Positions 15,355 through 64,000 of a DNA stretch of 64,000 nt are shown piece after piece. The notes under the pieces were generated by a model, which was not told the DNA's origin, did not search any database, and saw nothing but the letters and a program-made list of their open reading frames with translations. The DNA is from Narcine bancroftii (lineage: Eukaryota), in assembly GCF_036971445.1 (NCBI RefSeq), contig NC_091472.1:304854001-304918000 (forward strand), written 5' to 3'. The position numbers and the translations under genes are program-made. How positions within the stretch are numbered: the stretch's first letter is position 1; the number at the start of each line of letters is the position of its first letter.

Positions 15355-17694
15355 GATGTCAAGAGTTGTCATCTTGATCCATGTCTATCACCAAGTATCA
15401 GTGGACCCAGAAGACATTCCAAGAACAGCAATAATTACCCCATTTGGGTTGTTCAAATTTTTATGAATGCCATTTGATTAAAGAATGTTGCTCAATCATT
15501 TCAACGGGTGATGGATGCTTTAGGACATGGTATGACCAATGTCTTCATTTACCTCGATGACATTTTAGAGGCCAATGTATTTGGAACATATTCGTACACT
15601 TTTTATTTGTCTTCAAGAATTTGAACTGACCATCAATCCAGATAAATGCATTTTTGGACAAGAAATTGATTTCTTGGGGAATAGGATTACTCAGGAAGGA
15701 GTGACTATTCTTGGGAATGGTAAATTTTTACTGCCGGTTTCTTCCACGAGCAGCTCATATTAAGAAGCCCCTTTTCAATTTACTGTCCAAAAAACACAGA
15801 ACCATCCATTAGACTGAAGAGAGAAACAATGCCTTCTTGAAGACTAAAGATTTGCTAGACTCATATGCCTAGCTACCCAGTTTGAAATGCACCCACTGCC
15901 CTTTCTACAGACACTTCCAGTATGGCTGTAGGAGGTGCACTTCATCAATATGTCAATGGGCAACAGAAACGGTTAGCATTCTTCAGCCACCACCTTCGTG
16001 AAGTAAAGAAAAAAAAATACAGTGCTTTTGATAAGGAGCTTTTGGCCATTTACTTGTTTATTCGACACTTCCATTATTTACTTGGAGGGCAGAGATTTTA
16101 CGACGTAAACTGACCACGAGCCCTTAATATTTGCGTTTTCCAAGGTCACAGAGCCCTGGTCAGCGTGACAATGGCAATTATCATTTATTTCAGATTTTTC
16201 CACCAAAATACTACATATTTCCAGAAAAGACAATGTAGTAGGTGATGCACTGTCCAGTTCTGCTCCACTCGAGGTTTTGTCTGTAGATCAAAGTATTGAT
16301 TACAAAGCTTTGGCCGCAGCCCAAGAACATGAGCATGAGACGAATGCTTATCAGACTGTAATCATAAACCTGCAGTTGGAGGATGTCCATTTTGGAATTC
16401 ATGGCAAAATACTCCTCCGTGATATATCAACAGGACACTCATGCCCAATAGTTCTTGCATCATGAGTATTTGACTCTGTGCATGGTCTCTCACATCCATT
16501 GATTAGATCAACCGTTCGTATGGTTTCCTACAGGTTTGCGTGGCACGGTCTCAAAAAAGACGTTACACAAATGGTGAGGTCCTGCATTGTGTGCCAGAAA
16601 GCAAATGTTCAGTGGGATACTAAAGCACGACTGTAATCTTTTCCAGAAGTTACTTGTCGTTTTGCTCACATCCATGTGGATACTGTTGGTCCGCTTCCTG
16701 TTTCAAGAGGATACTGTTATCTTTTTACAGTAATAGACAGGCTTACACGATGGCCTAAGGCCATCTGCCTATGGTAGATGCTATTGCAGATACGTGCTCA
16801 GTTCCTGGCCGTCTCATTTTGGTTTACCGGCGCACATTACTTCAGATAGAGGACCACAATTTACTTCCTCGCTGAGGACAGCCTTGTCTCACTTGCTCAG
16901 TTCAACAATTCATCATACGAATGCCCATCATCCCCAGGCTAATGGAATAGTGGAAAAATTTAATCAACATCTCAAGTCAGCCTTGATGGCTTGGTTAGAG
17001 GGCCCGCAATGGGCTGATGAATTACCTCAGGTATTACTGGGCATTAGAACAACTTCAAAGGAGAACCTCCAAGCTTTATCTGCTGAGCTCGTGTACTGCA
17101 CACCATTGGTGATCCCAGGGGAGTTCGTCCACTGCCATTCCAACTCCAAAGATGATCTTAAGAAATCGTTGAGCAGGTTAAGGGAGACTGTAGAAAAATT
17201 GACCCCTGTACCACCATCTTCGCATGGAGAACACTCTTCCTTTGTGCCTGAAGACCTCAAAAACTGCAAATAGGCCTTTAGCTGAAGGGGAACACTTGGT
17301 CAACCTTTGCAGATACCTTACAAAGGACCTTATACAATACTCAAACTAGGTTAATCTGTATTTTGGACATTGGAGGGAAGCCACAATCTTTCATCATTGA
17401 CAGGCTTAAACCAGCTCATGTAGACAAGTCTTCCTAGTCCATTGCAGAGGTCGACCACCTAAAAGAAAGACAAAACTTTCTGCCAGTTCTTGGGGGGGGT
17501 CCCGTGTAGCGGTGCCATGGCAGTACTAAAACTCCCTGAAGCATTGAACCGGCTATATGATGTCAGCGAGCATGATTCTGGTTTTTAAAAAGGTTGCGCA
17601 GGTGACAAAGAGCAAATCCATTTGATTCATTCTAAAAACATCTAGTGTGATTATTTCCTTGTGTCCACTGTGATTCCAGTGGCACAGGCTGTCA
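15355..17694 (+). mobile_element. 5'-truncated Gypsy LTR retrotransposon (RT-RNaseH-integrase, PPT, 3' LTR 17505-17694)
   Basis: TAIITPFG, YLDD, LAFFS, YSAFDKELLA, ITSDRGPQFTS, HPQANGIVE and GPY motifs. G-rich PPT then TGTAGC...TGTCA followed by ATAT. Confidence 0.88.
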
Positions 17695-25549: not shown

Positions 25550-28500
25550 TGTAGCAGCCGGTCACCGCGGAAAATGGGCCAACACTCCGGGTGGCGAGCA
25601 CATCCAAGAGCCAGAAGACCGCGCAGCGGCACTGCTCCCACAGCAGGCAAACCAGCTAAGGCAGCATGGGGGGGGGGGGGGGGGGGGGTGGTGTCTGTAT
25701 GTACCCCGACTGTTTAGACAGCATCTAAAGCCCAACGATGAGGATCCAGAAGCAATCCACTCAGTCACCTTGAAGCTGCCAACCTTCTGGACAAATCAGC
25801 CACATATATGGTTCAACCAGGCTAAAGCTCAGTTTTCAGATCTGGCAGATCACAGCAGAGTCCACTCAGTACTGCCACATCGAGAGTGCCTTGGACCATG
25901 ACACCACAAACTGAGTGGCCAATTTCATTCAGGGGCCTTCGTCAGAAGGCACCTACACTACTTTCAGAGACTTACTCATTGAGATCTTCGGGCTCTCACG
26001 TCGTGAAAAAGGGACACATCTGCTCCACTACGACGGGCTGGGGGACAGGCCATCCAATGACCCTGATGAATGATATGCTGCCCCTCAATGGAAAGAATGA
26101 ACCCTGCATAATGTTCATGCAGGCGTTTCTAGAGCAATTTCCTGAGGACGTTCAACTGCTCCTGGCGGACACCAACTTCAGTGACCGGCCCCCCCAGAAA
26201 GTCGCAGCATGAGCGGACATCCTATGGAAGCAGAAAAGAGAGTGCTCGGCATCCACAGGGCTTGTCGCTAAACCCAGACCAGCCCGCCAAAGGAACAGCA
26301 ACACCACAAGGGAGGTGAGTCCAATAACCAGTGGTGCTTCTATCACCACTGATGGGCTTCCAGAGCCCGCCAATGCCAACCACTGTGCACATTCCAGAAA
26401 AATACCGGGGCCAGCTATCACTGATGACCACGGTGACTGGCCAACAAGACAGCCTCCTGTATGTAAGAGACTGTCACTCTGGTCAGCGGTTCCTCATGGA
26501 CACAGGAGCAGAGGTCAGCGTCCTGCCCTCGTCGGAGCAGGAAACCAGAAACAGGCAAGTGCGCCCCACACTAAGGGGAACCAACAACAGCACGATCAGG
26601 ACCTATGGCACATGCAAAGTCCAACTGTAGTTGGGTGGCAGCCTCTTCTCGTGGGCGTTCACAATGGCACCCGTGGAACAGCTGCTCCTTTGGGCAAATT
26701 TCCTGTGCACCCAGCCTGCTGGTGGACCTGAAGGGTCAGAGACTGGTTCACGCAGACTTTCCCCTTCAAGGATGCCAGGCTCCCAGCTCCCCACCTGGAC
26801 TCTGCAGCAATCTACAGATGAGTACACTAAGATCCTGGCAGAGTTTCCAGCAGTGCTTAACCCCCAGTTCACTACAGAGATGCCCCAGCACGGAGTGCAG
26901 CATCACATCCTCACCCAAGGCCCACTATTCCACACACAAGCTAGACAACTTCCCCTCCAACTAGCAAAGGAAGAGTTCAAGAAGCTGGAGGAGCTTGGCA
27001 TAGTACAGCAGCCGAACAGTCCATGGACTTCTCCCCTGCACATGGTGCCCAAGGCCACTGGGGATTGGAGACCGTGCGGCGACTACCGCCGCCTTAACAA
27101 AGCCACAAGGCCATATCGTTACCCCGTGCCGCACATCCAAGACTTTGCAGCCAACCTGCACAAGGCGAAGATCTTCTCAAAAGTGGACCTTGTCCAGGGA
27201 TACCATCAGATCCCAATATGCCCTGTTGACATCTCCAAGAACGCCATCATCATCCCATTCGGCTTGTTTGAATTCTTGCGCATGCTGTTCAGGTTGAAGA
27301 ACGTTGCGCAAACTTTCCAGCGGCTGATGGATGCAGTGGGCCAAGATGTGGATGGCACCTTTGTCTACCTAGATGACATCCTTGTGGCGAGCAAAGACAG
27401 GAAAGAACACTTGGAGCACCTCCCCACCTGTCAGAGCAAGTTTGGACTGACAATCAACCTAGCCAAATACCAGTTTGAGTTGAAGACCATCGACTTCCTG
27501 GGCCATAGAATAACCAAGGAGGGGGCCACGCCACTAACCAGCAAGGTGGAGACCATCCAGAAGTTTCTTAGGCCAAGCACGACCAGGGGATTACAGGAAT
27601 TCATAGGGATGATCAACTTTTATCACAGGTTCATTCCCTCAGCTGCCAGAATCACGCGACCTTTGTTCACCCAGATGGCAGGCAAGGCAAAAGAGATAAC
27701 ATGGGACAAAGTGTCGGCAGAGGCCTTCGTGAAGGCTAAGAAAGCCATGGCGGACAATGCTCTTTTGGCACACCCCAGGGCAGATGCTCCAACAGGAACA
27801 GCGATTGGCGGTGTTCTGGAGTAGCAGATTGAAGAGAGTTGGCAACAGATGGCTTTCTTCAGCAAACATTTCCAGCCTCTGGAACTGAAGTACAGTGCTT
27901 TTGACAAGTTCCAGTACTTCCTCGAGGGCAGGACATTTACACCCTTTACCAACCACAAACCCTTGACTTTCGCCCTGGCCAAAATCTTGGAACCCTGGTC
28001 AGCTCACCAACAGTATCATCTGTAATACATCTCCGAGTATACCAGAGGTACAGCACGTCTTGGGCAAGGACAACATGTTGGTGGACGCACTATCCAGGCA
28101 AAACATCCACACGCTATTGAAGGGAGTGGATTTTGTGACACTAGCAAAGGTACAGCAAGAGTATGCGGAGATGGCCTAGTACAGGACAGCCATATCTGAA
28201 CTAAAAATCCAGGACATCCCAATCAGCACAGATAACACCACCATCCTGTGCGACATGGGCACCAGACAGGCCAGACCTATTGTCTCAGCAGCTTGGAGAC
28301 AACAGGTTTCCAATTCCATCCATGGGCTGGCTCACCCATCCATCAGGACCACAGTCTAACTGGTGGCCAGGAAATATGTGGCATGGTCTCCAGAAACAAG
28401 TCAGCGGGTGGGCGATGGTGTGCACACAGTGCCAAACAGCCATGGTACAGTGGCAAGACCCCACTATAGCACTTCAAGCCCAGGGGTTCCGCTACCTTTC

Positions 28501-53086: not shown

Positions 53087-55137
53087 ATTCCAGTTTATTA
53101 CGTGCAATAAATTATCTTATTTTTGAACTCAGATTTTATTCTAATTTCTGCGTTTAAACACAAGATAACAGACAGTAAATGTCCAAAACAACGGTAACAG
53201 AAACAAGGTAATAATGTTCTACAGTATATAGGAAGCCAAAGCTATTAACGTTAATTGTGGGTAAGAAATGCTTTAAAAGGCAGTATTAAAAGTTGCTCGA
53301 TGAAAATGGTGTTTTCTTCTCATGGATCTCGTGCAACAGCAGCGGCTTCTGTATAGTACAAAGGCATTTTAATTTTATTGTTTAACAATAAAACATAAGT
53401 TACAACATTCATTCAAATCATGGCAAACTACTGAATTACGAAATGAGATTCGGTCGACAGCAATACACCTTTTTTGTCATCTTATGAATTATTTGTTCTA
53501 CAAGTTAGCATTGTGTTATAGTTAGTAATCCTATTAAAATTTCAGATCATGACATGCTCGCTTAAAAAGCTTATCGATGAATAAAATACATTATTCCTGA
53601 AAACAATGGTGTTTCTGAGACATTGATAACAATGTGATTCAAGCTTAATATTCAATCTTGTGATTCAAAACAAATGAAGATTATGTCTAATTAATTCTGA
53701 AGCTTTGCAGTATTTTTAACTTAAGGTGTTAGATATATAAAGATGAACAGAATCGAGATGAACTCCACTGACCAAAATATCTGTCCTCTGGCGCCCTCGT
53801 CTGATTTATTCTATTACAACAGTCATATTGCTCCATGGCATCCCGAGAGTTTCTTTTTCCGGAGATTCGGAGGCATCAAGAAATAAGCTGACAAGTTAAA
53901 GGTAGAACACGCCTTGTTGTCCTCATGAGTTAACTTACGTATAGATCAATTATCTCATATCGAATCAGTTCAGAAGAGTTGATACAAAGGATAAATGCAT
54001 ATATTGACTTGCATGAACATTATATTTAACTGACTTCAGAGCTTTGTTATTTTGTGGAATAACAGTGGGTTGCCCAATGCCATTGTTAAACACTGGATAT
54101 CAATGAAGATTTGTAATTGTCGAGATCAAGTGGTTCATGAAAAATAAGGACAGAAATTCAGATTTGAATAAGTATCCTATAACCTAAAACTCTGAATCGT
54201 GAAACTATAATCTCATTATAACTGGCGACTTTTTGTGGACTGTAAATAACGTTATTTTTTTGATTGGCATATTGCTAGTTCATTAGTGTTAAATATAACA
54301 GTAAGAAACTGGCAAGGGCATTGGAAATTAGTTTCATATTGAAAATCCACTATTCCATGTTCTGATTCTTCTTTCCATCCTTTATATTGTAATTATGTCA
54401 ATGGAAAGTTTTAATCGGATAGAAAGGTCATACAAGTGTTGAAAGCTGGAGAGAAAAAAAATCGATCACACTTCGGTGTGCCGCAGTAGTTCATTTCAGC
54501 GCCCTCAAAAAGGTTTACAATAATAGACTAAATATTTGCTATTTCATCTCATGCTGGTATGCGAGGTGTAATTCTGGGGTTTTAAGGGTTATAGCAGGCA
54601 ATAAAAGCTTCTTAAATGCTTTTTTTTTGTCTGACGGTTTCATTTCAGATTACAGTCACAGTTCCACTACGTTACTGTTCCACTCTGGCGTTCGAAGTAA
54701 AAAAATAAAGAGGTCTTTCCTGATCCAGGTAACCAGCAGCTGAGCATTGTCATTTAAGTTAATCAGAAAGACGGGGATTATACAAATGAGCTCAGAACTC
54801 AGCATTGACCTTGGGTCAACAGCTACAGTACAGATGTGTCATTCTGAAATGCAGTTCATGTCCTTGAAGTTTGTTCACTAAGTTCAATTTGCAAAGAGTC
54901 CACACTGTGTTTTATTTGCGAACTGCAGTAGAGGCACAGCAATAAAAAGATCAGGTAGTTTAGACCAAGGTGTAGATAGTTCGAGCCATTTCTGGGAGGT
55001 GGAAGTTAAACTACTTGTACATTGCCCGCACCAGTATTTTGAACAAAAAATTGAGCTTTCAAGTAACGACAAAACGTATTTGAGAGATTCTAGCTGCAAG
55101 GTTTGGCGTGAAGACGATCGTTTAGTAAAATTGTAAG

Positions 55138-55663
55138 ATGGATTTAACTTCGCTGCAGTACAAACTGGCGTTAGAGACATCTAGCGATAAGACAGTAACG
55201 CTGCAAGGTGGAATACGTCCAATTGATATGAAACCAGTACTTTCGGAGAACATTGGATTTTCGCCTTCAGTTTTTCCTTCTGCTTTGAAACCAATTCCAA
55301 GTGGAAGATACCACGGATTCTATTCAGAAGATATTTCAACTTGTACCTCGCATGGAAAAGGAAATGGGGAGATAGTTGCAATCTCACCTGAGGCGGGTCA
55401 ATTCACTGCCAACCAACTTCAAAGTGACAGTCATATACCTTTGTTTAGTAACTACCGCCACAATCCCTGCATTAGAGGCGAAACCCCAACAAGCTCATCA
55501 ATTGATCAGAATTGGCCATTAGAATATACCTTGACTGCACCTGCTCAGGTCCAGCCATATCCCAGTGACCCGGACACGTCTGCTTTCAGCTATTCCCAAT
55601 GTTACGGAGCAGCCATTTCTGGAGCAGCATTTCATACAAGTCCCAACGGCCCAATGCATTTAG
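55138..55663 (+). CDS. HOXD14: Homeobox D14, exon 1
   Basis: Open 175-codon ORF MDLTSLQYKL...QNWPLEY...GPMHL G|gtcagt. Phase-1 donor matches the exon 2 acceptor. Confidence 0.85.
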
Positions 55664-56361
55664 GTCAGTCTGTGAGTGTATATCTGACATGTAGTGATGG
55701 CTAACGTGGAACAATAATCCCATTGCTTTCGATATGTGTTTTAAAAAATACACGGCTAGTATTTTCTTGTGTTATAACACCACTCGACGATTGTGTTTAA
55801 CTTACATGCAGTTGCAGAGCATTTAATTTTATATATTTTTTAGAAAACTAAAGCCATCACACTGTAGGAAATATGTTTCTATCTAAAGAAAACCTAAAAC
55901 GCTTATGACGTCCATTCGACCAATTTACACAAGGAAAGTGATCAGTTGTTTCCTATCTATTCTTCAAGAACTATTTCAAAAATCAAATTGAATTTTCCTG
56001 TTTGTAGTCAAAGTACTTTAACATTGGGAGATAAGTCGAAAACCAAATTCTCGTCATCACACTTTCAAACACGTTGGAATCTAAATGAGAAAATGAATTG
56101 TATATTCAAATATATTTCAGATGCTTAAAAGTAGGCACAAAATTACTTCTTAAAGATGAACGATGGAAGGAATACATTAAATTGAAACTAATTTCAGTCT
56201 TTATCAGCATTGTGGTGGTAAAATGCTAACTTCAATTACAATACCACATTGTGGTTCGGCTAACAATGACTTGCATGTACAAAAATAAATTATAGGTAAA
56301 TGTTATTGCTTTAGATTCATGTTAAACTTTCTTATGGATATGTATGTTACCCCGGTTTTAG

Positions 56362-56537
56362 GATTTATGTCGCAATGGTCACCGTCGCCAAATCCAGAAA
56401 ATAGAAGAAAGAAAAAACGAATCCCTTACAGCAAGCAACAAATTGCTGAACTGGAAAAAGCTTTTGAAAAAAACCGATTCCTCACTCCTGAAATGCGATT
56501 AAGTATTTCTTTCAAATTAGGTTTATCAGAAAGGCAG
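56362..56537 (+). CDS. HOXD14: Homeobox D14, exon 2 (homeodomain helices 1-2)
   Basis: tttag|GFMSQWSPSPNPENRRKKKRIPYSKQQIAELEKAFEKNRFLTPEMRLSISFKLGLSERQ|gtaag. AbdB-type KKRIPYSK. Confidence 0.93.
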
Positions 56538-56702
56538 GTAAGACAAGTTTTTTTTTTCCCATCCCAAGATGGATAAGGGAAATACCAGCCCGCAGATGCT
56601 GTCTTTCTTAATTGTCAACAGGTGGACGCATTTGTCCCCTGGTACATTAAACCGACACTCTTCCTCTTATCTTCTGGTTTAAAATGACCTTCTGCTTTTC
56701 AG

Positions 56703-56789
56703 GTAAAAATATGGTTCCAAAACCAGCGACAAAAAGAGAAAAAACTTATTCGCATGCAATCGATACACTCAAGCTACCCTGGACTGTAA
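56703..56789 (+). CDS. HOXD14: Homeobox D14, exon 3 (recognition helix and C-terminus)
   Basis: ttttcag|VKIWFQNQRQKEKKLIRMQSIHSSYPGL*. WFQNQR and the intron-split homeobox are diagnostic of paralog group 14; located between Evx2 and HoxD13. Confidence 0.94.
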   Translation, partial: VKIWFQNQRQKEKKLIRMQSIHSSYPGL

Positions 56790-57226
56790 CAAAGGAACAG
56801 CCGTGTGTAAAGGAAGCATGGCTTTGACTGGTAAAAATATTTTCCAGCATCACTTCTCTTGAGACATACCCGCATTCAACAAGCATCTTCGTTTTCATAA
56901 GTTTTCGAACAAGTACCTGCATGGAAATGTTTTTATTGACTTTTTGTTTTGCAGTGATGTTGCTAAAGACGATAAACGAATACTTACACCACGAATTTAA
57001 TTCTTTGATTTGTTAATATAATTATTATCTGATAATCCAATATGTTTAACGTGTGTATGATTTTTAGAATGCGGCAATGATTCTCTGAAGGTGAACTTAA
57101 ATGTTGAAACGATTATGTTGGTAAGGATTGTGGAGGGTTTGCAGGTGTATCTTTGCAATTTAATTTTTTTTAATTTTCAAATTTAAAATGATTTGAAACA
57201 CTGCATTGTACAAAACATTGTATTTT

Positions 57227-57232
57227 AATAAA
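57227..57232 (+). terminator. Candidate HoxD14 polyadenylation signal
   Basis: AATAAA ~440 nt after the stop, preceded by TGTA motifs. Confidence 0.55.
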
Positions 57233-57316
57233 ATCGGCAACTTTGTGAAGGCGCTACTTTGCAGTGGTATACATTAAGTCTATTTTACCTCGTCTTTCTA
57301 AAACACATCACAATAT

Positions 57317-57392
57317 CTCTGTCTGTCTGTCTGTCTACCTATCTATCGATCTCTATCGATTATCTCTCTACCTACCTACCTACCTATCCATC
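57317..57392. repeat. Compound tetranucleotide microsatellite (TCTG/CTAT/CTAC)
   Basis: Read directly, just after the HoxD14 poly(A) signal. Confidence 0.85.
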
Positions 57393-60300
57393 TGTTCATT
57401 TTCCAATTTTATTTCATGGTGATTTCTTTCTTGAGAATTTGATATTCCCTTCGTTTTTAGGTTTAGTCATTAAGTAGTTCCTGAACGAAAATGTTAAAGT
57501 GGAAGTTTAGTGAGCTTCTGGACTTTCACTTGCAAAGCTTAATTTGTTTGGAACTAAGCACATGATTCCACTGCAAATATAATGAATTAACAAGTGAAAA
57601 GAGTTTCCTTAAATACAACTTGCAGATTTGTTATGTTTTCTGCTCTGTGAAATTTTATATTTTTGTTGTCGCTGTAGTTTTTCTCTCCAAAATTTGATAG
57701 TTCTGCAACAGAATTATTAAAACTAACAAAGAAACGAGTTTTGCTTCAGAATTATCATTCCTTATTTTACACGTTTTACTTATGTGAGATGCGTTTTGAC
57801 TTTGAAAACATAATTATCCATTCTCTCGATTGTTCATCGATTACACCAACAACTAAAAATGTATGAATGGCACAAAAAAAAGCCATAGTTTCTCGGTTCC
57901 CAATTTCTCCAGAAGAAATTTCTCCGGCGGAGATCTTCAGGAAATTCAAAATATCCAAAAATGCTCTGGCGATAACTTTTTTTTTTAAATGATGCCATGG
58001 GATGTTATGTGTCCATTTGCGAGAACTGATGTGAATTCAATTCATCATCTCATTTCAAAGACGATGTTGAACTGGAATATCAAACTAGATGCAAGAATCT
58101 AACCTATGTTCGGCGATCGTTCTCTTATCTAAATAGTCCAATGCATAAGATAAAAGAAGTTTGGATTTAATTTAAAACACAACATCGCAGCATATCCAGA
58201 GAAATTGTTTATAAATGATGGTAAACCATAATAATCCAAGAGAAACCTGTTATTAATTGGCTAGTTGCACTGAGAATCATTCGAATGTATGCTTGTCCGA
58301 TTATACCGTTTTTCAGATGCTTATCAGGACAAAGATTCATTTGCTTAAAGACATTGTGCATATTATATCACTCTTAACAAAACTACTCACAGAATGAATT
58401 CTAGTTTGAAATCGCCCTTTTGTGTGGAGCAAATAATTCAAGAACGGCAAAATGCAATGATCTGTAGTGTCAAGTTAACATTCAGGTAATCTTGACACGA
58501 TAATGTTAACTTCGTGGTAGGATAAGGTAACATAGCAGAAACTCTTTCAGTTTATTTNNNNNNNNNNNNNNNNNNNNNNNNNNNNNNNNNNNNNNNNNNN
58601 NNNNNNNNNNNNNNNNNNNNNNNNNNNNNNNNNNNNNNNNNNNNNNNNNNNNNNNNNNNNNNNNNNNNNNNNNNNNNNNNNNNNNNNNNNNNNNNNNNNN
58701 NNNNNNNNNNNNNNNNNNNNNNNNNNNNNNNNNNNNNNNTGCTCCTGCCTTTTTTAATGATTTAATATCTGACTACTGTTGATATGGAAATCTTCGAGTT
58801 CTACTTTCGCCAAGAACAAATGGAAAATAGACAATTGCTACAGATATCGAAAAATATGCATTAACAGTTCTACCTGTGTTTCCATTCCTCTCAACCTTTT
58901 CATGCTCAGATCAGTTGGCTTTCATGTTAAAAATTGACTATCAAGTTTGCCTCCTTGATATTAAACTAGAATGCCTGCTCTACACATATATACAAATATA
59001 AACATCGTAATGTAAAAGGTAATACTAAATTTAGTCTTCACCCTCTGGTGCAATGAATCATGCCATGTGTGTGGTCCACTGAAGGCTGCCTTTGTTCGTG
59101 GCTCCTGTTGTACCAAAGTCAAGACCAGAAAATTGTGCAAAAGTAAATAGGTATGTGCATCATACTTTAGTCAAGAACACTGTTGATCACCGTGAACTCA
59201 CATTTCAGTCATTAAAGCTTTTGTGAATGCATTGTAAGACATTATTAAAGACATTATTAAACAGTTGAATGATCGTTATTATTAGCAAATTCAGTGTTCA
59301 AGGGATTTAATTTTAAATACTAAATTAACCTTTATTTATTGGCTACATCATATTGGAATGATACTCATTTGAAAATGTTAATGTACTCTACAGATCAAAG
59401 CATCTTTTATTTCTTAATTCTGAAATTAATTCGAAGTATATTGCATAACATGCCATTCTTATTTGGTACTAAAAACATATATTTTGCATTCTAAGTATCA
59501 ACTTCCACATCTTTTCGCGCGACATTACTTTTTGCTTATTGGCAAGTTTTATATGTCAAATAAAATTATTTTATTGTTGGATTTGACCGGTAAGTTCGTT
59601 TCCACATAGATTTTTAAAGGATTCCCTGTTCTGATACATGATTTTGAACTCAGATGGGGAATGCTGAATTGGGGGAAAAAATTTCTACCTGTTTTAAAGA
59701 TGTAGTGATTGTGTTGGCAGCATATTAGCAGGGGTAGGTCCTCACAACAGCAATATGGTGTTTTGAATGTGTTTGTTATGCGAAGAAGGGGTATACTTTT
59801 TTAAATAATGTTTTACAGAGGCTTTCTTTGATTAAATACATTGCCTTTATAATAATTACAAAATATTATCTACAGATACACGGACACTTTATCTCTGAAA
59901 TACATGAGATACTTGGGGCATAAGGAATAATGTTCGGGCTTGCAATGGAGTAAAATACTTCAGCAATGCTAACTGGAACCCACGTTTCCAAGTTGAAAGA
60001 GGAGGCGTTCGTTTTAAGCGTTTATCTAGTTGGTAATTACGTTAGATGAAATACATATTTCGTTCCATTTGTCATTGTTGGTGGATTTCATCTATTTTAG
60101 TTCAAAATTAATGATGATTACAGGTTATTATTGATGCAAATCAGAAATGTCGCAAATAACATTGATTTAATATCAGTGATCATTTGGAATTTATTTTCAA
60201 TTGCAGATTAGGTCCAACGCAATTTGTATACTGAGTAGCCAGGTCTTGATAATCAATCATTCGTTGTGTATTGGCAAAATAAGATATATTTTCTGGTGAG

Positions 60301-63300
60301 TAATCTGGTTGTATTGCACTATTAATAACGATCACCCCAATACTCTACATGTATTCAAACATGATTCATATAGCTTGTTACAGAGTGGGATTCAGTTATG
60401 GAAAAACTGGATACATTTTTTTGATCACTGTATCTATTATTGTTGTCTAAAAAATACGTGTGTATTTTAATATCTATTTTGCTGTGCCTACGTTTTAAAT
60501 TGAATGAAATGGCTTTGCCCGAATTGAATGACCCGTTCGGTAGCAAGATCGGTTTCAAATCATTCAAGATTGGCCAAAATTGTAACATCTTTCTTAAAAT
60601 AACTGAAAAACAAATCGAACAAGTTATCAAATTAAACTTCTTGACACGAGAGAGTGGACGTTGTCCACATATATCTTTTAACAGGTATAATTTTGAGCCA
60701 AGTAAAGAATCGATCTATGCGGCCTTGACCATCAGAATAATATTCTGGAGCATTTTAAACCATAAATATGATAGGCTACTTCTAGTAGGACCAACCTAAT
60801 TTTTTTTAAGTACCAGGGGAAACCACGGAAACTGTATAGAGTTAACGATTTTTTTTTAATGTTCGAAAGAAAATATCCCAGCCACGATTTCCCACAAAAT
60901 TTACAAAGCGACATTGAAAATTGCATGTCGAACATTCCTTAATAATTAGAAACAATAAAATAATATAATTGTGGATTAAAAAAATCACATTCAAATAAAG
61001 TCTTTGATGTGTATGTAAATAAGTTAAAACGTTACATTTGCTTGCCAAGTAATTTCAATATATTACATGGGAATACTGCTAATATACCAAAATAAAACGG
61101 ATTTATTTATATTTATAATTGCCGATTTGGATTCTACATGTTTCATTTGTTCTAGAGGCCGTCCATTCCCCTGCAGCCACATTTATTGCTCATTGCTAAT
61201 TGCCTGATAAATTAACAATGGGCTTTCTAGTAGAATCCTGTTTGAATTTTAACTCAACTTGCTAACGAAAATGGCGTTCTGCTATTAAAGAGAATTTAAT
61301 AACCAATCTAACGCATCCCTGTAAGAAAAATTAGTGCCACATTTTATTTAGTTTGTCGCGAAATGTTGTATTTAAATAATATATTAACATCTTAGAAATG
61401 CCATATTTTTTCGAATCTATTATTAATCACAACTAACGTATTTTTTTTTCCGAATTCTCACTTAATTCCCCCTGAACCGTTGAACTGCTTTAAACCGCTA
61501 TTTACCGTCTTTCCCCCTCTATTTTATTTCCTCCTCAACCCACCCACCCCCTCTCCACCTTGACCTTGGCCTTCGTCTACTTCCGGAAAGAACCCCTTTG
61601 TCTGCATACCAGAGATGCGAGCAACTTGAGAGGGCGACTTAGTTTTTTAAAATCCAATCATGTATTTTCCCGGAATTCTAAATAACAACAGCTACCCGAA
61701 AACTAATGTTAGCAAATCCTCCAATGTGAAAGTAGGAGTTACTAATTTTATATTTTTTTTCTCTCTCTCTGATGTGGGTGCAATTCATATGCTTTCAAAT
61801 AATCGCGATGGATTTTTTTTTAAATGATTCGAGGGCGCAAAGGATACGATTTGAACTCAGTTGATAGTTCTTTCAGATTATTAAATTGCAATTAGAGTTG
61901 ATTTATTTAAATATTAGTTTACCGTCAGTGAAGGGAAGGTATATTTTTTCAAATGAAGGAAGTAAATCAAATGGTTCACAGAAATTAATGCACGTGATTC
62001 AATTCAAAAACCATAGATCCCACTTGTGGTTTGTTCCTGTGAAATAACAACTTTTCTTGATTCTTCCCCCCACCCCATCTTCTCAAAAACAAATCGCCGG
62101 GATTCAAAACGACTTTTTAAAAAAAAATATTATCACAATCCTAATTTTCCTCTCGCGTGGAATTGAATTGCTTGACATTTTCAATTATTGTCGAAACCGT
62201 GTCATGTTTCTCTGAGTGGCAACATAGTCAACGAATTTGCCAGTGCAAAGACTCGCTTGGCGAAAGCAGGTAAACCTACTCTCTTAACTAGTGAGATGAC
62301 CCCCTTCAAGACACCACAATATTCTGAAAACTAGGTCACAACGACTGATCTCTTTCCATTATCCATTTAAAATTTGTGGAATGTTACTCTTCCTAGTTTT
62401 GTAGCTCCATCTGATCTATACATTTTATTTAAATATTTGCACATTTCTTCCTTTTCGTGAATCAGAACATTGAGAGAACATCCATTGCTCGGAAAAATAA
62501 TCTCTAAAGAGTGTACGGCTTGGTTTAACATATAAAATATATATTGATTTTACTTCTCGTGGTGGTAGACAATTCACATAGCATTTATTGTTGATAGATT
62601 TCCGTAATCTAAAGGTGTTCTATTCCACAGAGCTGAATTATTTAGTATACGTTTTGTTTTTGCTTCTGCCCTGAAGTCTGAGATAACAATTGGGTTAAAC
62701 GAACCAGGCACTCGAATTTTGCTAAAATGTTCACCTAAAAGCTAGATAGGTTCAGATTTTTGCTAAAAAACGTAGCCAATTGAGAAAGCCGGTGATTCCA
62801 AACTCAGGTTTTTAGTCTGCTTGAGATATATCTCTGAAAGTTCTTGCACGGTCCTATTACTCTCAGGAGTTGACAATTTAGAATAACTGAATTTTCTCAA
62901 TACAGACTATAAACTCAGCTCTGGTATGGGAACATTTTGTTCTGTTATGCAATAGCACAATTCGAAAATTACAGCGCTGAGAGGAAAAAAGACTAAGGTT
63001 CAAGTAACTTTCACTCGATTTTTTTAAAAGTATCAATTTAAGAGTGATTGCTTTAAGAATTAAATAGACAAAAGAGAAAATGTGATCTTTAAAATCTGCT
63101 TCGAGGTGGTTTTGTCGATGTTATCACGAAGAACACATTTTGATACTAAAAGGGTTGAAACCGGGATTCTTCCTCAGAATTCATGAAAATGCAAAAATCT
63201 ATCACCACTCTCTCCATTCTGTAAGTGTGACAACAAACATAATCCCATTTGCAAGTAATTTTCGCATGTTCCTCAATGCTTAATCTAAATTTAAGAAATC

Positions 63301-63552
63301 CTCAAAAACTCTTCATGTATTCAATACTTGTAAGGAACTGACACTTCAAATAATATAAAATGTTTTATGTCATGAATATTATCCCATGTAAATATCAATT
63401 AAACTGCATTAGTTGTAGTATTGCCGAGAAATAGCGATCCTCTTTTTTTAACTTATTTCACAGTTTCGATTATTTTATTTAATTTTTTGGGGAAAAAAAA
63501 TTAAGATCGGGAAAAGAGGGCAGTGGGTCTGAAGCGAGATCAACCGCGGAAT

Positions 63553-63654
63553 GTCACGTGGTCAAAACCGACCTATCGCGTTTCACTCGCGCAATGCACA
63601 CTCTCATCAGTGAAAATAAGCACCTCTTTCCACTCCGAGACTGCTTTTATAAAG
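63553..63654 (+). promoter_or_regulatory. HoxD13 proximal promoter (E-box and TATA-like motif)
   Basis: GTCACGTGG at 63553-63561 and TATAAAG at 63648-63654, just upstream of the coding region. Confidence 0.6.
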
Positions 63655-63682
63655 CAGTACTTAGTTTGCAGTGGGTCGTGAT

Positions 63683-64000
63683 ATGACAGCTCTTCTTTCA
63701 GCCCCTTGGAGGACTGATACTGTCAGATACCTGCACAGCAGAAACAATACGAATAATCCGGAGATGGAAGGATTGGGTGGGAACGTCCCTTCAAATCAAT
63801 GCAGGAATTTCCTATCTGCCTCTGCATTTGGAGCTCATCACAACTCCTTATCTTCGGGACCTGCTTACTCAGGCGGAGATCGGACGCATTCTGTCACTTC
63901 TGAACCAGCTAAGCAATGCAGCCCATGTCCAGCTCCTCCAAGCCCTTCAAACCCAGCCTTCAGTTATGGCTATCACTTTGGAAGCAGCTATTACAGTTGT
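63683..64000 (+). CDS. HOXD13: Homeobox D13, exon 1 (5' part, runs off the window)
   Basis: MTALLSAPWRTDTVRYLH...MEGLGGNVPSNQCRNFL...EPAKQCSPCPAPPSPSNPAFSYGYHFGSSYYSC. QCRN, KQCSPC and YGYHFG..YYSC are Hox13 N-terminal motifs. Alternative ATG at 63764. Confidence 0.92.
   Translation, partial: MTALLSAPWRTDTVRYLHSRNNTNNPEMEGLGGNVPSNQCRNFLSASAFGAHHNSLSSGPAYSGGDRTHSVTSEPAKQCSPCPAPPSPSNPAFSYGYHFGSSYYSC

What the first reader, a model, noticed from the sequence alone, without database searches (positions are those of the whole stretch)
55138..56789. Intact three-exon HoxD14 between Evx2 and HoxD13
Seen: three exons splice in frame (526+176+87 nt, GT-AG introns of 698 and 165 bp) to a 262-aa protein with no stops. 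The homeodomain is interrupted between ...LSERQ and VKIWFQNQR, and a poly(A) signal follows. Known: Hox14 is a rare paralog group kept in cartilaginous fishes, coelacanth/lungfish, cyclostomes and a few basal ray-finned fishes, and lost in tetrapods and teleosts; the split homeobox and WFQNQR are its hallmarks. Inference: the gene is functional here and easy to miss, because the ORF track recovers it only in pieces.
Basis: partly seen in the sequence, partly recalled or inferred. Interest (0 to 1): 0.75.

Follow-up and report, generated by a model that had tools for sequence, protein, structure and literature searches.

The report
Ordinary intact HoxD14 of electric ray
This is an intact copy of HoxD14, a known posterior Hox gene that sharks and rays normally keep and that likely acts around the embryonic hindgut and cloaca; the same protein is already in public annotation of an electric ray under a wrong name, so the finding is ordinary.

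Summary
Three exons (526+176+87 nt; GT-AG introns of 698 and 165 nt) give a 262-aa protein without stops. It is identical to RefSeq XP_069786641.1 of the electric ray Narcine bancroftii, there named 'Hox-B9-like'.

It meets the published Hox14 hallmarks: three exons, WFQNQR, and an intron between homeodomain residues 44 and 45. Trees place it with Hox14, apart from Hox13 (99/97), and in the HoxD14 clade, apart from HoxA14 (98/95).

One small addition: the ancestral intron-1 acceptor seems lost, and an in-frame acceptor 6 nt downstream is predicted to replace it, removing two residues. The protein evolved faster than in sawfish but not faster than in skates.

Transcription, splicing and dN/dS were not tested. 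The AATAAA is weak evidence (37% chance). No earlier scan finding on Hox14 turned up.

The parts
55138..55663 (+). HoxD14 coding exon 1 (residues 1-175 plus one base; phase-1 donor)
   Evidence: The start matches the first Met of all 12 rows. The same donor position is implied by a skate-like read-through protein (P0005) that continues G-Q-S, as this window does.
55664..56361 (+). Intron 1, 698 nt, GT-AG
   Evidence: A branch-point-like YTNAY at 56331 has its A 27 nt before the end of the AG, and this AG is the first one after it.
56354..56355 (+). Position of the inferred ancestral intron-1 acceptor; reads GG here, not AG
   Evidence: Inferred from protein alignments: 7 of 7 other rays read H-L-A-[L/F]-G at the junction and Narcine lacks two residues. 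The genomic frame still reads V-L-G in register. A little-skate model that reads into the intron end aligns there. No ortholog DNA was available.
56362..56537 (+). HoxD14 exon 2 (176 nt); homeodomain residues 1-44 at 56406-56537
   Evidence: Pfam Homeodomain E 2.8e-20 on the whole protein.
56538..56702 (+). Intron 2, 165 nt, GT-AG, splitting the homeobox between Q44 and V45
   Evidence: The little-skate model P0013 reads into an intron at the same point with the same V-R-Q start. The other in-frame AG in this intron (56621) leads to a stop.
56703..56789 (+). HoxD14 coding exon 3 (87 nt): homeodomain residues 45-60 with WFQNQR at 56712-56729, short tail, TAA
57227..57232 (+). AATAAA, candidate poly(A) signal
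   Evidence: weak, found in 37% of 5000 shuffles.
48264..50813 (-). Neighbour: three-exon Evx-type homeobox gene (taken to be Evx2)
   Evidence: ORF translations; split homeodomain hits. The Atlas gave an 'EVX2 fragment' cluster at 0.82, a lead only.
63683..64000 (+). Neighbour: 5' part of exon 1 of a Hox13 gene (taken to be HoxD13), cut by the window end
   Evidence: Pfam HoxA13_N E 8.5e-29; first Met uncertain (63683 or 63764).

Best explanation
This is the ray ortholog of HoxD14, a three-exon gene with an open 262-codon frame between an Evx gene and a Hox13 gene, which likely makes a working posterior-class homeodomain transcription factor that is predicted to act in the embryonic hindgut/cloacal region, as reported for shark HoxD14. 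Shown: exon structure, open frame, hallmarks, orthology and a homeodomain more constrained than exon 1. Inferred: the transcript is spliced at both GT-AG introns, with intron 1 ending at an in-frame acceptor 6 nt downstream of the ancestral one, so the protein lacks two linker residues. Also inferred: the homeodomain binds DNA through helix 3 (I47, Q50, N51) and the N-terminal arm (R5) like other Abd-B-class Hox proteins (general homeodomain knowledge, recalled). Expression around the hindgut/vent, and perhaps in posterior fin mesenchyme, is carried over from catshark, paddlefish and bowfin. Control by the regulatory landscape on the Evx2 side of the cluster is an extrapolation from Hoxd13.
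For: Exact in-frame splice, identical to RefSeq XP_069786641.1. Homeodomain tree of 43 rows: all 19 WFQNQR rows form one group (99/97) apart from 12 Hox13-like rows; 6 of the 8 of these scanned carry HoxA13_N, and P0001 does not. Full-length tree of 25 rows: Narcine lies in a ray clade (100/99), inside a clade with named horn shark and paddlefish HoxD14 (98/95), apart from coelacanth/lungfish HoxA14 (100/100). Identity to sawfish is 75% in exon 1 and 92% in the homeodomain. All 12 homeodomain positions invariant among 26 other WFQNQR proteins are kept (2 of those 26 are not Hox14). All three length differences from relatives keep the frame. Expression in other species comes from passages in PMC5054437, PMC4778128 and PMC8423624.
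Against: No transcript, junction read or dN/dS was obtained for this gene. At conserved sites the excess of changes in exon 1 over the homeodomain is not significant (20 of 111 against 4 of 56, Fisher p=0.065). An open frame alone is modest evidence: under neutral drift 30-55 amino-acid changes would include no stop in about 2-12% of cases. The protein changed faster than the sawfish ortholog (36:9, 34:8, 36:8 and 28:10 unique changes). The ancestral intron-1 acceptor appears lost. Bowfin shows that WFQNQR and the split junction can persist in a pseudogene.
Confidence: 0.88

Rival explanations
1. The gene is HoxD14 but in early decay. Loss of the ancestral intron-1 acceptor impairs splicing, selection is relaxed in electric rays, and the frame is still open only because too little time has passed.
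For: GG at the inferred ancestral acceptor. Faster change than sawfish (4 of 4 tests p<=0.0035) and than stingrays (8 of 12 tests p<0.05, uncorrected and not independent). Homeodomain changes R2K and T41S at positions nearly fixed in other Hox14 proteins. Bowfin and gar hoxd14 are pseudogenes.
Against: The rate does not exceed that of skates (1 of 8 tests p<0.05; about 0.21 against 0.21-0.23 changes per site from the ray node). Homeodomain changes are few, mostly conservative and outside positions 47-55. The substitute acceptor is in frame, is the first AG after a branch-point-like motif, and has 65% pyrimidines upstream against 71% for intron 2. All length changes keep the frame.
Confidence: 0.07
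2. The acceptor shift is an artefact of the assembly or of protein-level inference, and the true protein keeps the two residues like other rays.
For: The inference rests on proteins and on one mis-spliced skate model, not on ortholog DNA; no reads were laid on the site.
Against: There is no AG at 56354-56355. Narcine has one extra codon there relative to skate, which is more than a one-base error. The RefSeq protein has the same two-residue gap, although it may derive from the same assembly.
Confidence: 0.04
3. The gene is a tandem duplicate of Hox13, or a Hox14 of another cluster (A, B or C).
For: The best natural matches among solved structures are HOXB13 and HOXA13 homeodomains. Source names include 'Hox-B9-like' and 'Hox-B13a-like'.
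Against: No chain among the 60 shown is named Hox14. Trees separate the protein from Hox13 and from HoxA14. It has no HoxA13_N domain. Exon 1 is 59% identical to named horn shark HoxD14 and 23-27% to the three HoxA14-clade proteins.
Confidence: 0.01

Closest known systems
RefSeq XP_069786641.1, 'homeobox protein Hox-B9-like' of Narcine bancroftii (P0001)
   Same: All 262 residues are identical to the spliced model.
   Different: Only the name: it is a HoxD14, not a Hox9.
Horn shark (Heterodontus francisci) HoxD14, D0IN01 / ACY39976.1 (P0007)
   Same: Same clade, WFQNQR, 65% identity overall, 83% in the homeodomain, same place between Evx2 and HoxD13 (passage in PMC3509897).
   Different: 266 aa against 262. 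Narcine lacks one residue late in exon 1, two at the exon 1/2 junction and one in the tail.
HoxD14 models of other rays (Pristis, Hemitrygon, Hypanus, Mobula, Rhinoraja, Amblyraja)
   Same: One clade (100/99); 67-79% identity; all carry other Hox names or none.
   Different: All 7 keep A-[L/F] before G at the exon 1/2 junction. The Narcine branch is longer than sawfish and stingray branches and equal to skate root-to-tip length.
HoxA14 of coelacanth and lungfishes; cyclostome Hox14
   Same: Paralog group 14, WFQNQR, 77-78% homeodomain identity.
   Different: Separate clades; exon 1 only 19-27% identical.
Bowfin and gar hoxd14 pseudogenes (PMC8423624)
   Same: Same locus; bowfin keeps WFQNQR and the split junction.
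   Different: Those are described as pseudogenes (bowfin with many stops); this frame is open.

Membership tests
Vertebrate Hox paralog group 14 | Three coding exons (PMC3509897 passage) | tested here: met
   526+176+87 nt with GT-AG introns; genomic model only.
Vertebrate Hox paralog group 14 | Helix-3 motif WFQNQR instead of WFQNRR | tested here: met
   At 56712-56729.
Vertebrate Hox paralog group 14 | Intron splitting the homeobox at the conserved position | tested here: met
   Q44|V45. The little-skate model leaves the homeodomain at the same point, and so does the paddlefish HOXD14 entry.
Vertebrate Hox paralog group 14 | Groups with Hox14, not Hox13, in phylogeny | tested here: met
   99/97 support, 43 rows x 66 columns. 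The bootstrap had not fully settled; the Hox13 rows are unnamed and were recognised by motif and Pfam.
HoxD14 (as against HoxA14 and other clusters) | Clade with named HoxD14 proteins, apart from HoxA14 | tested here: met
   98/95 support, 25 rows x 267 columns; no B14 or C14 protein was in the set.
HoxD14 (as against HoxA14 and other clusters) | Lies between Evx2 and HoxD13, on the strand of the Hox genes | tested here: inconclusive
   An Evx-type gene and a Hox13 gene flank it in the expected orientation. Their paralog identity (Evx2, D13) was not established by a tool.
HoxD14 (functional gene) | Spliced transcript, hindgut/cloacal expression | not tested
   No reads were laid on the locus; no expression data for this species.
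HoxD14 (functional gene) | Purifying selection (dN/dS well below 1) | not testable with these tools
   No ortholog DNA was available. The protein proxy points to constraint (92% against 75%), but the site-class test gave p=0.065.
Hox paralog group 13 | HoxA13_N domain, WFQNRR motif, Hox13 clade | tested here: not met
   No HoxA13_N hit; WFQNQR; outside the Hox13 clade.

The most novel reading that the evidence does not exclude
Electric rays lost the ancestral intron-1 acceptor of HoxD14 and now hang on a substitute site while the protein drifts. This would be an independent Hox14 loss caught at its start in a cartilaginous fish, the step before the transcribed pseudogene seen in bowfin.
Probability: 0.08. 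Interest if true: 0.4.

Novelty: already known. Interest (0 to 1): 0.12.

Why it matters
It matters little as a discovery. HoxD14 has been known from sharks since the description of paralog group 14 (cited), and a preprint states that HoxA and HoxD gene content is unchanged across sharks and rays. The practical value is annotation. Of 26 source-named Hox14-clade proteins retrieved, only 4 show a Hox14 name in the displayed text (names are cut short), so name-based surveys would miss the gene, here filed as 'Hox-B9-like'. The acceptor shift is a small example of splice-site turnover that keeps a frame. It would matter more only if it marked the start of gene decay.

Tried and rejected
Expression. 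The run search gave 'no RNA holder listed'. One run of uncertain kind (X1) held 0.34 of the sampled words and two held next to none. None was laid on the locus, so this is no evidence either way, and junction support remains open.

Genome. No whole genome is held for this window, so there is no synteny beyond the window, no search for other Hox14 copies and no genome-wide rate control.

dN/dS. Not possible without ortholog DNA; replaced by protein-level proxies.

Poly(A) signal as evidence of function: rejected (37% of 5000 shuffles).

Alternative acceptors. For intron 2, the in-frame AG at 56621 leads to a stop. For intron 1, the in-frame AG at 56295 has only 35% pyrimidines upstream and would add 22 residues; the in-frame AG at 56397 would drop 12 residues of the linker. 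Neither fits the ortholog lengths.

Electric-ray-specific acceleration: not upheld against skates.

Atlas searches on the neighbours were uninformative. Rfam found 0 matches in 46000-64000.

Earlier scan findings. The words hoxd14 and hox14 occur in none, and the 8 listed were on other genes; none by sequence or place.

Literature. Kuraku 2008 is not held. I found no paper on Narcine HoxD14 or on this acceptor shift in searches for Hox14/HoxD14 (30 of 65 listed), Narcine+Hox (3 papers; the one opened has 0 occurrences of HoxD or Hox14), WFQNQR, HoxD14+skate, Hox clusters+batoid+elasmobranch+genome, 'Hox D14' and skate/PG14 terms. The library lacks most subscription papers.

Full report
Observation. 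Joining window 55138-55663, 56362-56537 and 56703-56789 gives 789 nt, 262 aa and a TAA stop; both introns (698 and 165 nt) begin GT and end AG. The second intron lies between homeodomain residues Q44 and V45, and WFQNQR follows at 56712. An AATAAA sits at 57227, but 37% of 5000 shuffles of the 500 nt after the stop contain one, so it adds little. The surroundings hold a three-exon Evx-type gene on the minus strand (about 48264-50813) and the start of a Hox13 gene at about 63.7 kb (HoxA13_N, E 8.5e-29).

What it is. A search with exon 1 alone returned 8 proteins among 30 candidates; the 7 that carry a name are from cartilaginous fishes. The best, P0001, equals the spliced translation letter for letter. 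It is RefSeq XP_069786641.1 of the electric ray Narcine bancroftii, named 'Hox-B9-like'. I infer the species from this identity. The same list holds horn shark HoxD14 (D0IN01/ACY39976.1), 65% identical. A profile search added shark, chimaera, sturgeon, paddlefish, coelacanth, lungfish, lamprey and hagfish proteins (best 120 of 699 listed), and a second search supplied unnamed Hox13-like proteins; 6 of the 8 scanned carry HoxA13_N.

Trees. In a homeodomain tree of 43 hand-picked rows, all 19 WFQNQR rows form one group (99/97) apart from the 12 Hox13-like rows (66 columns, bootstrap not fully settled). In a full-length tree of 25 rows, Narcine falls in a ray clade (100/99) inside the clade with named horn shark and paddlefish HoxD14 (98/95), apart from coelacanth/lungfish HoxA14. 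Left out of that tree were the mis-spliced little-skate model P0013, the exon-1 read-through P0005 and the short isoform P0020. The published hallmarks are three exons and WFQNQR (PMC3509897, passages) and the split homeodomain junction (PMC8423624, passages; PMC3707753, passages). All are met. The Evx2 and HoxD13 names of the neighbours follow from this and from the published order Evx2-HoxD14-HoxD13; no tool established them directly.

Is it functional? The evidence is indirect. The frame is open, and the three length differences from relatives (1, 2 and 1 residues) all keep the frame. Identity to sawfish is 75% (131 of 175) in exon 1 and 92% (54 of 59) in the homeodomain. All 12 positions invariant among 26 other WFQNQR proteins are kept (two of the 26 are unrelated proteins, so the invariant set is understated). 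Against this, the site-class test is not significant (20 of 111 against 4 of 56, p=0.065). An open frame would survive 30-55 neutral amino-acid changes in about 2-12% of cases. Bowfin keeps both hallmarks in a pseudogene. No transcript evidence was obtained and dN/dS could not be computed.

Rate. Relative-rate counts show more unique changes in Narcine than in sawfish (4 of 4 tests p<=0.0035), often more than in stingrays (8 of 12 tests p<0.05) and seldom more than in skates (1 of 8); the tests are uncorrected and not independent. From the ray node, Narcine has 0.21 changes per site, skates 0.21-0.23, stingrays about 0.13-0.14 and sawfish 0.05. There is no genome-wide control. The rate is therefore within the ray range.

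Narcine lacks two residues at the exon 1/2 junction, where 7 of 7 other rays read H-L-A-[L/F]-G and 16 of 17 other cartilaginous-fish rows read A-[L/F/V]-G (the chimaera row differs). The donor has not moved: a read-through protein close to the skates continues G-Q-S exactly as this window does. The six bases before the used acceptor still read in register as V-L before G. A little-skate model that wrongly includes the intron end aligns there as Y-V-T-A-F-G against Y-V-T-P-V-L-G. The simplest reading is that the ancestral acceptor stood at 56354-56355, where this sequence has GG, and that splicing moved to the in-frame AG ending at 56361. That AG is the first after a branch-point-like motif at 56331. 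This is inferred from proteins, without ortholog DNA or reads. It most likely is compensated splice-site turnover; it is also the only hint that the gene could be weakening.

How it likely works. The protein is a posterior (Abd-B-class) homeodomain factor. R5, I47, W48, F49, Q50, N51, R53 and K55 are present; their DNA-binding roles are general homeodomain knowledge, recalled. Its nearest natural solved relatives are HOXB13 and HOXA13 homeodomains. Catshark HoxD14 is expressed in cells around the hindgut and not in neural tube, somites or fin folds (review PMC5054437, passages). Paddlefish HoxD14 is also expressed in posterior fin buds (PMC4778128, abstract and passages), and the bowfin pseudogene in vent, tailbud and fin. 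PMC12675288 (passages) argues that the 5' HoxD regulatory landscape first served the cloaca; extending this to HoxD14 is my inference. I therefore expect a narrow hindgut/cloacal role here (0.88 for an intact, working gene).

Known or new. The gene is known and the protein is already annotated, under a wrong name. The Squalomix preprint states that HoxA and HoxD content shows no gain or loss across sharks and rays (10.1101/2025.06.08.657570, passages; its supplementary figure S5, which may list HoxD14 per species, was not seen). PMC3038165 (passages) documents HoxA14 in lungfish. Powers and Amemiya 2004, Kuraku 2008 and Feiner 2011 were seen only as citations in these papers. I found no paper on the Narcine gene or the acceptor shift. 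Verdict: observation confirmed, interpretation supported, novelty 'already known', interest 0.12.

Noticed in passing
Database proteins P0001-P0029: Hox14 proteins are widely misnamed by automatic annotation (Hox-B9-like, C10-like, D12-like, A7-like, hhex-like, nob-1-like, php-3-like). Only 4 of 26 source-named Hox14-clade proteins show a Hox14 name in the displayed text.
   Followed up: partly
P0013 (Leucoraja erinacea, XP_055494781.1) and P0025 (Polyodon HOXD14 entry): Both database proteins appear mis-spliced. P0013 reads into both ends of intron 1 and into the homeobox intron; P0025 leaves the homeodomain right after the split point. Neither has WFQNQR.
   Followed up: partly
P0003 (Pristis pectinata): The sawfish HoxD14 model lacks one residue at the end of the homeodomain, yet is the slowest-evolving ray copy.
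   Followed up: no
window 48264-50813 (-): The Evx-type gene also has an intron inside its homeobox, two codons later than in HoxD14 (after K46). Its last exon encodes a long polyalanine run followed by a serine run, in a 66% GC stretch.
   Followed up: no
window about 13600-38100: Retroelement-like remains lie on the far side of the Evx gene: a reverse-transcriptase ORF at 26631-27821 (Pfam RVT_1, E 3e-23) and a weak integrase-like hit at 16737-17270. Other ORFs there look like LINE pieces by recall and gave no or only weak Pfam hits.
   Followed up: partly
window 57320-57390: A short run of tetranucleotide repeats begins about 90 nt after the candidate poly(A) signal.
   Followed up: no
window, whole: The window holds 1,047 N in a few runs; none lies inside the HoxD14 gene.
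   Followed up: no
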